Below, in pieces: positions 16,120-42,823 of a stretch of 64,000 bases of DNA. Both the position numbers and the translations under genes were made by a program. Where the stretch lies: contig OZ024743.1 in the NCBI GenBank assembly GCA_964016885.1, positions 222,518,001-222,582,000 on the forward strand, written 5' to 3'. The stretch comes from Eledone cirrhosa. Taxonomy: Eukaryota. A model generated the notes under the pieces. The model made no database searches and was not told the DNA's origin. It saw only the letters and a program-made list of their open reading frames with translations. Within the stretch, counting starts at the first letter, position 1, and each line of letters opens with the position of its first letter.

Positions 16120-16179
16120 TGACATGTACGGGTACTTAAGTTTCGTTGGGTTATACACCCCAACTTAATCAGCCTGTCA
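16120..16179 (-). ncRNA. Type I hammerhead ribozyme fold (core G8->U variant)
   Basis: Minus strand TGACAGG CTGATTAA GTTGGG gtgtataa CCCAAC GAAAC TTAA GTA^CC cgtaca TGTCA: stems I, II and III all present. Confidence 0.75.
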
Positions 16180-25799: not shown

Positions 25800-26034
25800 T
25801 GTATCTGTGTGTGCGTAAAAAGTAAACAGAAACAACAATGAATAAATATATTAGTTCAACACTTGATATAGTAGGAAAAGGGTCTGAACGTTTCAGACAC
25901 TTCATCAGAAGATAGAATGAAATATATGAAAGATGAAAAAGAAAGACAGAAAATGAAAAGAGAAAGGAATGGAAAAAGCATGTGTTTGTTCAGGTGTGTT
26001 CAGTTAGCCATATATATATATATATATATATATA

Positions 26035-26398
26035 TTTTGTTTCTGAATTTGTTTAGCAAGATTCTTTATCTGAAAACGTGTGTTGAAACCGATATTGTTA
26101 TACTTTGGGAGGGTCATGTTGCTAATAAGAAACAAGACAAAAACATGATGGCGTAGGACAGAACAAAGGAGAGGCACAAAACAAAGAAAAGAATCCCCAG
26201 TCACTGAAGAGGTTACAGAATGTGTGACGAAAGAACTTTGACAATATATGAACAACCGTCCGGTTGTAGAACCAACCAACCAACCAGAAATTTATAAATT
26301 CTTAAATTTATAAATTTAATTTATAATAAATTGGAGTGAAAGCAACTGGTGCGTGTGTTTCTTATTGGCAACATGACCCTCCCAAAGTATAACAATAT
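26035..26398. mobile_element. Cassette in (TA)n with 43-bp inverted repeats plus tail; probable Penelope-like remnant
   Basis: 26092-26134 is the reverse complement of 26356-26398 with one mismatch; contains a hammerhead motif. Confidence 0.65.
26200..26242 (+). ncRNA. Minimal type I hammerhead ribozyme motif
   Basis: GTCA CTGAAGA G GTTACA gaatg TGTGAC GAAAG AA CTT^TGAC: intact CUGANGA/GAAA core, 4-bp stem I, 6-bp stem II. Confidence 0.65.
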
Positions 26399-29300
26399 AT
26401 ATATATATATATATATATAGGGTTCATTGAACACGCACATGCTTTCAAAAAAGTACAAAGACAGTGAGGCATGAAGACAATGAAGAAAAGGAAAACAAAA
26501 ACAATGATAAGAACAATGTGAATCCCAACAAGTTTCTAAACAACTGAAAGATGCAGTCAACATTACAATCTTCAAAAGAGGTAACCAAAAAGCCTGTTTG
26601 AGGACACAGAAACACATGGACATCCATACATATACATATATATATTTATACATATCATCATCATCCTTTAACGTCCATTTTACATGCTAGCAAGGGTTGG
26701 GTGAGTTTTCACAATCAGTACTCAAACTGGGCTACAAACCTTTCAGATTGGTTGGAGGTCTGCATTTCTTATATGATTCCACACTCTACTGAGTGCATTT
26801 TATCATAACACCAGCACTAGAAACATAGTTAGGTTTTTGACACAACTGAGGGGCCCTCCGGGGCCCTCCCAACCCTTTGTTTAGCAGGTTTTCTATGGCT
26901 GGTTGCCCTTTCTATCACCAACTATTTTACAGAGTGTACTAGGTATGTTTATTGTGTAGATCAGCAACACAAAGGAGGTTGGCGTGTTTTTGACACAACT
27001 GAAGAATTCGTCCAACTCTTCATTTAGCAAGCTTTCTATGGCTAGATGCCCTTTCTATCACCAACTACTTTACAGTAGCAGGGAACAAATAAAGTTAAAT
27101 GATGATAATGATGACTTTTTATTTACCATATTTCTAATAAAAGACACTACCTATGGTTTAGAAATCATTTCGAAAATAACCAAGAATTTTGAGGGATATA
27201 ACTTTATCATACTTTATCTTAACCCTTACTAGTAGGAAAACAGACATAATGATAATAAACACTTTAACACTTTTGTCACCATATTTAAAATATTTCTAAT
27301 TTGTAAGGATTTAGTAATGTAACTTTTGCATTATTAAGCTGGTATTTGGAATGTAACTTAAAGGTTTTTACATGAAATTATGAGGAAAGGGTTTTAAATA
27401 AATATAAGCACTGTAAAATAAACATGGAGGTGCATGGCCTAGTGGTAAGACTGTTGGTCTTACAACCATAATGTTGTGTGTTTGGTTCCTGGACTGGATT
27501 GTGTGTTATGTTCTTAAGCAAAACACTTCATTCCACATTGCTCCAGTATACTCAGTTGAAAATGAGTACCAACAGCAATAGCTGAGAGTTTAAACCTGTG
27601 ATAGACTGGTGTCCTGTCCAGCAGGGAGTATTGTACTCTCAGTTGCTTCATGCCACAAAAGCTAGGATAAGCCTCCAGGCTCGTGACAGACTTTTGACTG
27701 TAAAATAAACAGCTCAGTATTGTAGAACCTGGGGCAGTTTTTAGGCAGTTTGGTAATAAAAGGATCAATTTAAAAAAAAAAAAAAGAAGCAGAATTCCTC
27801 TGAAGTAATGAAGAACTAAATTTGTTAGAAATGAACCTACCTTCATTTCAAAGAAATTAAAAATAAAAAAAAAAACACAAAACTTACAAAGAACAATAAT
27901 TAAATGGAAGGGAGGAGTAGAATTTTTTTAAATGAATCACCCATTCCTCAAAATGGCACTAAAACCCCTCAGGGGGCAGTACAAAACCATCAACCTATAT
28001 TTCTTTAATGAGATGATATCATCGTTGAAAGCAGCTTCTATTTAATGGTTGTTAGTTTTAGGGAGGTTTCATTTTATTAACTCTTTTGTTATCATATTTC
28101 TAATGAAAGCCACTGCCTATAATTTGAAATATAATCAAGAATTTGGGGGAGGGGTTAGTAATATAATTTGTTTCATTATTAAGCCCTGTCGATTCTTGGG
28201 CTATGATAACCCATTAAACCTATGCAATTATGGAAAGCAGATGTAAAATAATGATGATGTTTGGAACATAACTTAACAAAGGTTCTAACATAAATTTATG
28301 ATGGAAGGGTTTTAGATAAATATAAATACATTAAAATAAGTTTTGTATCACAGAACTAGGGCCAGTTTTGGGCACTTTCAGATTAAAGCAGGGTTTCTTT
28401 ATTGTTTTTGTTTTTTATTTCGTATTTTTGCTTTGTTTGTAGATTTTGTTTGTTTTTGTTTTGGGGTATTTTTGGAGGTGTTTTGTTTTGTGTTTTTTTT
28501 GCTTTTTTTGCTTTTGGAGTTTTGTTTTTATTTTTCTCTTTTTGTGCAGTTGATTTATATTTTTTATCAGTTGAAACACTCAGCAATTTTTACTATTTAG
28601 TGTTAGCTACTGAACTAGTCTCGGGTCTCTCATATACTGCCTTTCATTCTTTGTGCATGAAAATAAATGTGTGTATGTGTATGTTTGCATGTTTGTGTGA
28701 ATGCTTACATGTTTGTGTGTGTGCTTGCATGTGTGAGTGTGTACTTCCATGTGTCTGTGTGCTTGCATGTGTGTGAGTGTGCTTGCGTGTGTATATATAC
28801 TTCCATGATTTCATGAGTATGCTTGCATGTTTCAGTGTTTATTTGTGTGTATGCTTACATGCTTATTTGTATGCTTGCTTATATGTATGTGTGAGTGCGT
28901 ATGTTTGCATGTGAATGTGCGTGGCTCATAACAGTCATATGATATCAACCCTCTTTAGTGAAAGGAGATTGCAATGATGATGAAATCCTCATTACCATCC
29001 TGAAAACAGCAGTGGAATGGCAGAAATAGGTAGAACATCTAACTAAATACTTTTCAATATTTGGTTAGGTTCCTCTTTTAATCTTTTACTTGTTTTAGTC
29101 TTTAGACTATGACCATACTAAGGCCCAGCCTTGAAAAAATGTAGTCTTTAGTCGGTCAAATCAACACCAATATTTATTTAATCAATTTCCTTTTGTTGAA
29201 CCACTAAGTTACAGGACACAAATTAGCAGGAAATACAAACACAGACACAAATACATGTTGGTATATACACACAAATGCATACAAAGATGGACAGACAGAT

Positions 29301-35460: not shown

Positions 35461-36279
35461 GCACATTGTGTCCTTTAGTACAACACATTGTATCCTTTAG
35501 TACGGCACAGTACGGCACATTGTGTCCTTTAGTACAACACATTGTATCCTTTAGTACGGCACAGTACGGCACATTGTGTCCTTTAGTGCAACACATTGTA
35601 TCCTTTAGTACGGCACATTGTGTCCTTTAGTACAACACATTGTATCCTTTAGTACGGCACAGTACGGCACATTGTGTCCTTTAGTACAACACATTGTATC
35701 CTTTAGTACGGCACAGTACGGCACATTGTGTCCTTTAGTGCAACACATTGTATCCTTTAGTACGGCACAGTACGGCACATTGTGTCCTTTAGTACAACAC
35801 ATTGTATCCTTTAGTACGGCACAGTACGGCACATTGTGTCCTTTAGTACAGCACATTGTATCCTTTAGTACGGCACAGTACGGCACATTGTGTCCTTTAG
35901 TACAGCACATTGTATCCTTTAGTACGGCACAGTACGGCACATTGTGTCCTTTAGTACAACACATTGTATCCTTTAGTACGGCACAGTACGGCACATTGTG
36001 TCCTTTAGTACAGCACATTGTATCCTTTAGTACGGCACATTGTGTCCTTTAGTACAACACATTGTATCCTTTAGTACGGCACAGTACGGCACATTGTGTC
36101 CTTTAGTGCAACACATTGTATCCTTTAGTACGGCACAGTACGGCACATTGTGTCCTTTAGTACAACACATTGTATCCTTTAGTACGGCACAGTACGGCAC
36201 ATTGTGTCCTTTAGTGCAACACATTGTATCCTTTAGTACGGCACAGTACGGCACATTGTGTCCTTTAGTACAGCACATT
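35461..36279. repeat. 54-bp minisatellite (22+22+10 subunits), ~15 copies, expanded inside a CORE-type SINE
   Basis: Near-identical units gcacattgtgtcctttagtaca-acacattgtatcctttagtacg-gcacagtacg; SINE head at ~35365-35460, SINE body resumes at 36280. Confidence 0.95.
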
Positions 36280-42475: not shown

Positions 42476-42823
42476 CATCATTCATTCATCATTTCATTTT
42501 ACGTCCGCTTGTCCCTGCTTGCAAGGGTGGGACGGGAACTGATTCTGGCTTGATTTCTACAGCTGGATGCCCTTCCTAACACCAACCTCATTTACAGTGA
42601 GTTCTGGGTGCTTTTTTTTTGCCGTGGCACCTCCACAACCACTTTGCAGTGGAATGATAGGAACCCCAGTCCCTATCATTTTATTTCTACAGCTGAGTAA
42701 ACTGGAGCAATGTGAAATAAAGTGTCTTGCTCAAGGAAACAAAACATCACCCGGTCTGAGAATTGAACTCACAACCTTTTGATTGTAAGGCCAATGCTCT
42801 AACCACTAAGCCATGTGCCTCCA
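42476..42823 (-). mobile_element. Mosaic SINE C (tRNA head + CORE-like + Nin-like + RTE tail), full length; partial repeat follows to ~42965
   Basis: Near-identical to 50235-50569 and 63641-63888. Confidence 0.88.

What the first reader, a model, noticed from the sequence alone, without database searches (positions are those of the whole stretch)
26035..26398. Inverted-repeat cassette carrying an intact-core minimal hammerhead
Seen: a ~57-bp tail, then 43-bp inverted repeats (26092-26134 / 26356-26398, 1 mismatch), all between TA tracts. Inside is GUCA-CUGAAGA-G-GUUACA..UGUGAC-GAAAG-AA-CUU^UGAC (26200-26242). Stem III AGAACU is one change from a palindrome. Established: Penelope-like insertions often show an inverted partial pseudo-LTR plus an unpaired tail and carry minimal hammerheads. 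Inference: this is a PLE pseudo-LTR remnant unrelated in sequence to the 16120 ribozyme.
Basis: partly seen in the sequence, partly recalled or inferred. Interest (0 to 1): 0.72.

Follow-up and report, generated by a model that had tools for sequence, protein, structure and literature searches.

The report
Two-armed Penelope retrotransposon stub with hammerhead
This is a short back-to-back remnant of a very abundant Penelope-type jumping gene sitting in a TA repeat, and its two arms stop at two different fixed points of the element's reading frame, as in nearly all two-armed copies, which likely records the element's enzyme copying its RNA from both sides of a DNA cut; the hammerhead-shaped motif is real but is only predicted to cut, and weakly.

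Summary
Observation confirmed, first reading supported. The cassette is two 5'-truncated, head-to-head pieces of a young Penelope-like element (PLE): 4.04-kb unit, one 1,228-aa ORF with a telomerase-like RT and C-terminal GIY-YIG; 11,191 exact hammerhead-core matches in the genome. The 43-bp 'inverted repeat' is the overlap of the arms and holds the ORF's ATG; the 'tail' is ORF nt 27-82(86). Of 125 terminal ends, 122 lie at +24-26 or +84-86, both ATAT sites, and 120 run into (TA)n; 31 of 32 two-armed insertions use one of each. Junctions vary, so this is not a TIR/MITE element. The hammerhead fits the published minimal PLE type, with two compensatory stem II changes in a sister family, but has a CUU triplet, a non-palindromic AA loop and no excess of arms starting at its cut site. 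The parent RT has a conserved ~70-aa insertion between motifs A and B, unlike published C-terminal-EN PLEs, plus a Nematis-type linker. The scan has already noted this footprint and this insertion on other DNA of this genome. Mostly known biology, cleanly quantified.

The parts
26010..26035 (.). (TA)n target tract, left side
   Evidence: 120 of 125 terminal ends of this family run into (TA)n
26032..26134 (-). Short antisense arm: element nt -17 to +86 relative to the ORF ATG (long, tailed 3' end)
   Evidence: 97% identical to the start of full-length copy L056; 98-99% to best copies
26036..26091 (-). Unpaired tail = ORF nt +27 to +82, coding sequence (with the arm it encodes the first 28 residues of the ORF)
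   Evidence: tblastn of the full ORF: residues 1-28 match 26117-26034, 96%
26115..26117 (-). ORF start codon in the antisense arm
26135..26136 (.). 5'-to-5' junction of the two arms (2 nt not in either arm's template)
   Evidence: junction differs in each of 12 look-alike cassettes
26137..26398 (+). Long sense arm: pLTR nt -236 to +26 (short, tail-less 3' end); starts in the family's 5'-start hotspot
   Evidence: 97-98% to best copies
26145..26153 (+). Copy (one change) of the AARATGGCG motif at the 5'-start hotspot; resembles a YY1 site (label recalled, untested)
   Evidence: motif in 41 of 49 ORF-picked family copies and 27 of 32 sister-family copies
26200..26242 (+). Minimal type I hammerhead; predicted cut between 26238 and 26239
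26373..26375 (+). ORF start codon in the sense arm
26395..26419 (.). (TA)n target tract, right side (first 4 nt shared with ORF nt +23 to +26)

Best explanation
The cassette is a pair of 5'-truncated, head-to-head copies of the end of an endonuclease-bearing Penelope-like retrotransposon in a (TA)n tract, likely made in one event in which the element's protein cut both strands and copied its RNA from each cut end, one copy starting at ORF nt +26 and the other at +86. Shown: parent element, two fixed ends, one of each per insertion, TA target, variable junctions, ATAT at both ends. Inferred: GIY-YIG nicks both strands of (TA)n; a dimeric RT primes at the two sites, with a window set by the protein and the exact register set by 1-4 nt pairing of the nicked TA end with AU-rich RNA; the +26 copy here ran to the RNA's probable 5' start (-236), the +86 copy stopped after about 100 nt; the two cDNA ends were joined end to end. 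The hammerhead rides along in the pLTR; it would cut only as a dimer or with protein help, weakly, and its cut product is not a preferred template.
For: Parent: 1,228-aa ORF, 4,039-nt unit, pLTR overlapping the ORF start; RT motifs and GIY-YIG/CCHH conserved in 99 aligned proteins; model pLDDT 92.9, top three folds are telomerase RTs. Copy number: 11,191 exact 34-nt matches, reversed control 0. Ends, from 99 of the first 100 listed matches, four duplicate loci dropped: 69 at +24-26, 53 at +84-86, 3 between, 2 read on; 120 of 125 into (TA)n; ATAT occurs only at +23 and +83 in the first 200 nt. One end of each kind in 31 of 32 contiguous two-armed insertions (p 8e-9) and 36 of 38 with gapped ones. 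Both arms of the same subfamily in 18 of 18 scorable of 20 pairs; identity 96.7% within vs 94.2% between. Junction overlaps of 1-15 nt in 23 of 33. 28 of 113 arms start in a 23-nt window, about 10-fold above neighbouring sequence. Sister family keeps the +26 end but lacks ATAT at +83 and its 12 long ends scatter over +69/70 (7), +75 (2), +82 (3) (Fisher p 0.003). Matches two-site internal initiation and both-strand cutting shown in vitro for an anole PLE (PMC11167929).
Against: No biochemistry or RNA data here. Two pairs break the rule (L133 short/short, contiguous; L143 long/long, gapped). The sister family has an unused ATAT at +47 and a +82 end with only 1 nt shared, so pairing is neither sufficient nor strictly needed; PMC11167929 reports initiation at sites not homologous to the cut DNA. 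Same-subfamily arms could reflect timing or later gene conversion rather than one RNA. Sample is one contig and needs an exact hammerhead core in at least one arm. The start hotspot borders an AC-rich tract where breakpoints are less exact. [quoted passage not shown]
Confidence: 0.85

Rival explanations
1. Same PLE origin, but the inverted arm arises from a single priming event followed by fold-back or self-priming (or an antisense template), with the tail left by endonuclease resolution of the intermediate.
For: Proposed in PMC3846280 and PMC8557442; would also give same-subfamily arms and one tail per insertion; a few junctions hold short palindromes (e.g. L103).
Against: Either arm can be the longer one (short-end arm longer in 16 of 32), the two 5' breakpoints are usually far apart in the element rather than a mirror point, and both ends coincide with internal start sites of the kind mapped in vitro.
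Confidence: 0.1
2. A non-autonomous TIR DNA element (MITE, Ginger-like TGT..ACA) that captured a hammerhead and moves as a 360-bp unit.
For: 43-bp near-perfect inverted arms; 11 other loci match the cassette end to end at 89-93%.
Against: All 12 have different inner junctions and mix both subfamilies; arms range from about 15 nt to over 1.7 kb upstream of the ATG; the arm is the start of an RT ORF; one end always overhangs by a coding tail; no TSD can be told apart from (TA)n.
Confidence: 0.02
3. Two independent insertions that happened to land side by side in the same TA tract.
For: TA tracts here collect repeated insertions of this and other PLE families (L005, L027, L031).
Against: No TA or host DNA at the junction (2 nt only); independent events would give one-of-each ends half the time, not 31 of 32.
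Confidence: 0.03

Closest known systems
Canonical C-terminal EN+ Penelope-like elements, Nematis type (PMC8557442 text, Figs S1 and S2 as text)
   Same: Single ORF RT + C-terminal GIY-YIG, CCHH cysteines, short linker C-x4-CxxC-x7-C as in Nematis_C4, pLTR partial tandems, inverted 5'-truncated copy, one-sided tail, hammerhead in pLTR, (TA)n target.
   Different: Motif A to B spacing 131 aa (129-139 in 98 of 99 homologs) versus about 60-63 in the Penelope, Nematis and Neptune rows of Fig S1 (hand count); DKS instead of DKG; tail 56-60 nt versus 30-40; asparagine-rich N-terminal stretch. No tree with reference PLEs could be built.
Poseidon element of Anolis carolinensis, PAc (PMC11167929)
   Same: Two internal ends inside the ORF that bound the tail; AT-rich target; hammerhead near the ORF start; no sign that cleaved RNA is the template.
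   Different: Here both ends share ATAT with the target, sites are 60 nt apart at +26 and +86 (PAc about +111-118 and neighbour), no conserved stem-loop found, and the hammerhead lies about 135 nt upstream of the ATG rather than across it.
Minimal PLE hammerheads (PMC4209133)
   Same: Type I, stem I 4 bp, long stem II with G10.1-C11.1, one unpaired nt between 9 and 10.1, near-absent stem III.
   Different: Loop 3 is AA, not palindromic, and is kept in the sister family; the larger subfamily has U at position 17.
Hydra and Naiad PLE clades (PMC8557442)
   Same: (TA)n targeting, tails and inverted copies; Naiad has an insertion in the fingers; both have octopus members in the supplement.
   Different: Hydra lacks CCHH, has a CxCx5C linker, DKT and is under 3 kb; Naiad has an N-terminal EN, no hammerhead and only a ~20-aa insertion.

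Membership tests
EN+ Penelope-like element | Single ORF with telomerase-like RT | tested here: met
   1,228-aa ORF; motifs A, B, C; top fold matches are TERTs
EN+ Penelope-like element | GIY-YIG endonuclease with CCHH | tested here: met
   VVY..C..C..YIG, H, H, E, N at the C terminus; Pfam GIY-YIG E 0.014 below cut-off for this copy, above cut-off for homolog P0063
EN+ Penelope-like element | pLTR from partial tandems, overlapping the ORF start | tested here: met
   L056, L058, L064, L065, L066, L067
EN+ Penelope-like element | Inverted 5'-truncated copy and tail at one end only | tested here: met
   31 of 32 contiguous pairs
EN+ Penelope-like element | Placement in the PLE RT phylogeny | not testable with these tools
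   No reference PLE sequences could be loaded; Repbase and Dfam not held
Nematis clade | Short CX2-5CxxC linker before the EN | tested here: met
   C-x4-CxxC-x7-C in the query and in 49 of 99 aligned proteins, near variants in 31, not found in 19; same spacing as Nematis_C4 in Fig S2
Nematis clade | No insertion in fingers between RT motifs A and B | tested here: not met
   131 aa versus about 63 for C_remanei in Fig S1
Neptune clade | Long cysteine-rich linker (about 25-35 aa between CxxC and the last C) | tested here: not met
   7 aa here; compare Neptune rows of Fig S2
Hydra clade | No CCHH, CxCx5C linker, DKT, under 3 kb | tested here: not met
Naiad/Chlamys | N-terminal EN, no hammerhead | tested here: not met
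   EN is C-terminal and a hammerhead is present
Minimal hammerhead ribozyme | Core CUGANGA, GAAA, UH with stems I and II | tested here: met
   core positions 46-47 of 47 in ORF-picked copies
Minimal hammerhead ribozyme | Covariation in the stems | tested here: met
   Two stem II pairs and one stem I pair change on both sides across families; 94.8% of cells paired versus 18-43% when slid (10 distinct rows, few independent events)
Minimal hammerhead ribozyme | Palindromic positions 15.2-16.2 and loop 3 (dimer helix III) | tested here: not met
   G-C pair kept but loop is AA in both families; a dimer would hold two A-A mismatches
Minimal hammerhead ribozyme | Self-cleavage | not testable with these tools
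   No assay; genomic proxy negative for the U17 subfamily
TIR DNA transposon / MITE | Fixed TIRs at both ends, fixed internal structure, TSD | tested here: not met

The most novel reading that the evidence does not exclude
The parent belongs to an undescribed, widespread branch of C-terminal-endonuclease Penelope elements with a telomerase-length insertion in the RT fingers, and its more than 11,000 copies show that every two-armed insertion is written by a dimer that primes once at each of two AUAU sites by pairing the nicked (TA)n ends with the RNA, which would give a sequence rule for the Penelope tail.
Probability: 0.3. Interest if true: 0.6.

Novelty: new variant of a known kind. Interest (0 to 1): 0.33.

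Why it matters
The cassette itself is an ordinary product of a known class. Its family is useful because it is young, abundant and has long open frames: it turns the qualitative statement 'tail often at one end only' into a near-strict rule (31 of 32), offers a natural experiment on target-RNA pairing (sharp end with ATAT, scattered end without it in the sister family), and supplies a candidate protein and RNA for the in vitro PLE assay. The RT insertion, if confirmed by a tree, weakens the published split between PLEs with and without an insertion in fingers.

Tried and rejected
Tail as a conserved stem-loop: folds of the ORF start in 7 family copies and 2 sister copies gave z between +1.4 and -2.3 and no shared structure; rejected. 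ATAT pairing as the sole determinant of the ends: weakened by the sister family. Hammerhead cleavage product as template: 16 matches for arms starting at the cut site versus 37, 43 and 19 at three control offsets; of 12 of the 16 fetched, 9 were internal deletions or changes, 1 started upstream and 2 were true junctions; control hits were not inspected; A17 subfamily not tested. Cassette as a unit that moves: rejected. Rfam gathering scan: only a tRNA-like hit elsewhere. Pfam on whole ORF: none; PDB by single sequence: none useful, by profile weak RT hits. Expression: no RNA holder listed. Energy evaluation of the active monomer failed because of the 2-nt loop, and the predicted dimer fold was not the active one; not used. 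First alignment of hammerheads was out of register and was redone. My first clade guess, Neptune, was dropped. Paper searches found no description of this family, of a YY1 motif in pLTRs, or of a C-terminal-EN PLE with such an insertion; Repbase, Dfam and subscription papers (e.g. Arkhipova 2006) were not searchable, so the family may already be catalogued.

Full report
Observation. A descriptor for a minimal hammerhead (stem I at least 4 bp, stem II at least 5 bp) finds this one site in the window and none in 300 dinucleotide shuffles. RNAfold forms stems I and II but the energy is ordinary (z -0.63). Rfam does not call it. It has no BLAST similarity to the motif near 16120.

Parent element. 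The cassette has 2,406 first-look candidates in the genome, 40 scored, and a 34-nt hammerhead pattern has 11,191 exact matches against 0 for the reversed control. Longer copies continue upstream into an ORF. A protein search of the genome scored 97 of 22,808 candidates, all 95-100% identical, many in open frames above 1,000 aa. Copy L056 holds a 1,228-aa ORF in a 4,039-nt unit, with 352 nt between stop and the next ATG, in a partial tandem. The C-terminal 729 aa have 174 relatives (120 listed), the best a protein labelled Octopus vulgaris at 70%. [quoted passage not shown] This is an endonuclease-bearing Penelope-like element.

Anatomy of the cassette. The right part, 26137-26398, is the pLTR in sense, from -236 to +26 relative to the ORF's ATG (26373). 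The left part, 26134 down to 26032, is the same end in antisense, from -17 to +86; it translates to the first 28 residues of the ORF. The 'inverted repeat' is simply the overlap of the two pieces, and the 'tail' is coding sequence. Both arms are 97-99% identical to their best relatives, so the insertion is young. Eleven other loci match the cassette end to end, but all twelve inner junctions differ: no fixed unit, no MITE.

Ends. I fetched 99 of the first 100 listed hammerhead matches (all on contig 1, chosen by position) and dropped four duplicate loci. Of 127 ATG-anchored ends, 69 stop at +24-26, 53 at +84-86, 3 between and 2 read on into the ORF; 120 of the 125 terminal ends run into (TA)n. 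The only ATAT words in the first 200 nt of the ORF are at +23 and +83. Among head-to-head pairs, 31 of 32 contiguous ones carry one short and one long end (binomial p 8e-9), 36 of 38 including pairs with a gap or deletion; exceptions are L133 and L143. Either arm may be the longer (16 of 32). In 20 pairs with long overlap, arms are 96.7% alike within and 94.2% between insertions, and 18 of 18 scorable pairs are of one subfamily. Junctions overlap by 1-15 nt in 23 of 33. 5' starts cluster: 28 of 113 hammerhead-bearing arms begin 55-77 nt upstream of the core, about tenfold above the next 250 nt, and the window's long arm begins there too (-67). A motif AARATGGCG sits at this spot in both families; it looks like a YY1 site (recalled, untested), and the spot is likely the RNA's start. 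This test was prompted by scan notes e1-10353012 and e1-10324872.

Sister family as a natural control. A related family (1,729 candidates, 40 scored, 30 fetched) keeps the +26 end. It lacks ATAT at +83, and its 12 long ends scatter over +69/70 (7), +75 (2) and +82 (3), each sharing 1-2 nt with the TA tract, while its ATAT at +47 is unused (counted by eye; Fisher p 0.003 against 53 of 56). So position is set roughly by something else, and short pairing likely fixes the register. No conserved hairpin was found over the tail.

Hammerhead. It fits the minimal PLE type of PMC4209133: short stem I, long stem II, a bulge between 9 and 10.1. Core positions are kept in 46-47 of 47 copies picked by their ORF. 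The sister family changes two stem II pairs on both sides and keeps the core and GAAAGAACUU. Two subfamilies exist: U17 (81 of 120 pattern-picked hits, including the window copy) and A17 (38 of 120; 42 of 47 ORF-picked). The loop of stem III is AA, not palindromic, and H17 = U is the weakest triplet (recalled), so activity is predicted to be low. Arms do not start preferentially at the cut site in the U17 subfamily: 16 matches versus 37, 43 and 19 at control offsets, and only 2 of 12 inspected were true junctions. This agrees with PMC11167929, where cleavage needed protein and was dispensable for insertion. No RNA run was listed, which says nothing either way.

Mechanism. Most likely (0.85): the protein nicks both strands of (TA)n; two RT sites, probably a dimer, prime at +26 and +86 of the element's RNA; each copy is cut short or reaches the RNA's start; the two cDNA ends are joined. 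The ends, their pairing rule, the target and the variable junctions are shown; cutting, dimer, pairing and joining are inferred from these and from the anole element. Fold-back from a single priming event remains the main rival (0.1).

Comparison and novelty. Architecture is as described for PLEs (PMC8557442, PMC3846280). The linker before the endonuclease has Nematis spacing, not Neptune's. The RT has 131 aa between motifs A and B (129-139 in 98 of 99 homologs), against about 60-63 in the six Penelope/Poseidon, Nematis and Neptune rows, 84 in Naiad-Amil and about 118 in human TERT by hand count from Fig S1 (three of the six counted); the paper states that canonical PLEs lack this insertion. 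So I file it as a PLE but not as a member of a named clade. The scan has already recorded the two-armed footprint in other families of this genome and this RT insertion (e1-9508900, seen after my). What is added here is the count for this family and the sister-family contrast.

Papers seen: PMC8557442 passages, sections 11 and 12, supplement searches and parts 54-55; PMC11167929 parts 1-2 of 4; PMC4209133 parts 1-2 of 4 and passages; PMC3846280 passages; bioRxiv 10.64898/2026.07.22.740005 passages (its supplements are closed and could list such families). Repbase and Dfam were not available, so the family may be catalogued there.

Noticed in passing
window 25820-25945, minus strand (core about 25908-25880): Decayed minimal hammerhead of another repeat family just left of the cassette (79-83% to stretches in L031, L074, L023, L199); stem II appears to have lost about 6 nt compared with the copy in L031.
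   Followed up: partly
window 16125-16175, minus strand: Hammerhead-like motif with a CUGAUUA core (G8 to U) and palindromic stem III; repeated elsewhere (L069, L032, 75-83%); unrelated to the cassette.
   Followed up: partly
window 25985-26009 and 26420-26447: The sequences just outside the two TA tracts resemble each other in inverted orientation over about 25 nt, perhaps an older inverted insertion around the same TA tract.
   Followed up: no
L056 ORF residues about 190-430: Long asparagine/threonine/histidine-rich low-complexity stretch kept in frame upstream of the RT, like the N-rich inserts described in rotifer Penelopes (PMC3846280).
   Followed up: no
L013:2035-3268 and L183: Neighbouring PLE of a different type (CxCx5C linker, Hydra-like) inserted next to family copies in TA tracts.
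   Followed up: no
L059 and L060 (C4:94729000-94745000): Head-to-tail array of at least three units of about 4.05-4.07 kb, two with 1,169-aa open frames listed.
   Followed up: no
L139 and L142: Two loci 1.2 Mb apart with the same complex junction and flank, likely one insertion duplicated with its surroundings; counted once.
   Followed up: partly
window 42756-42813, minus strand: tRNA-like Rfam hit just above the gathering score; similar heads at about 16075-16040 were not checked, and a related stretch lies near 27430; likely a tRNA-derived SINE.
   Followed up: no
window 35461-36279: 54-bp satellite, 15.5 copies, 93% matches.
   Followed up: no
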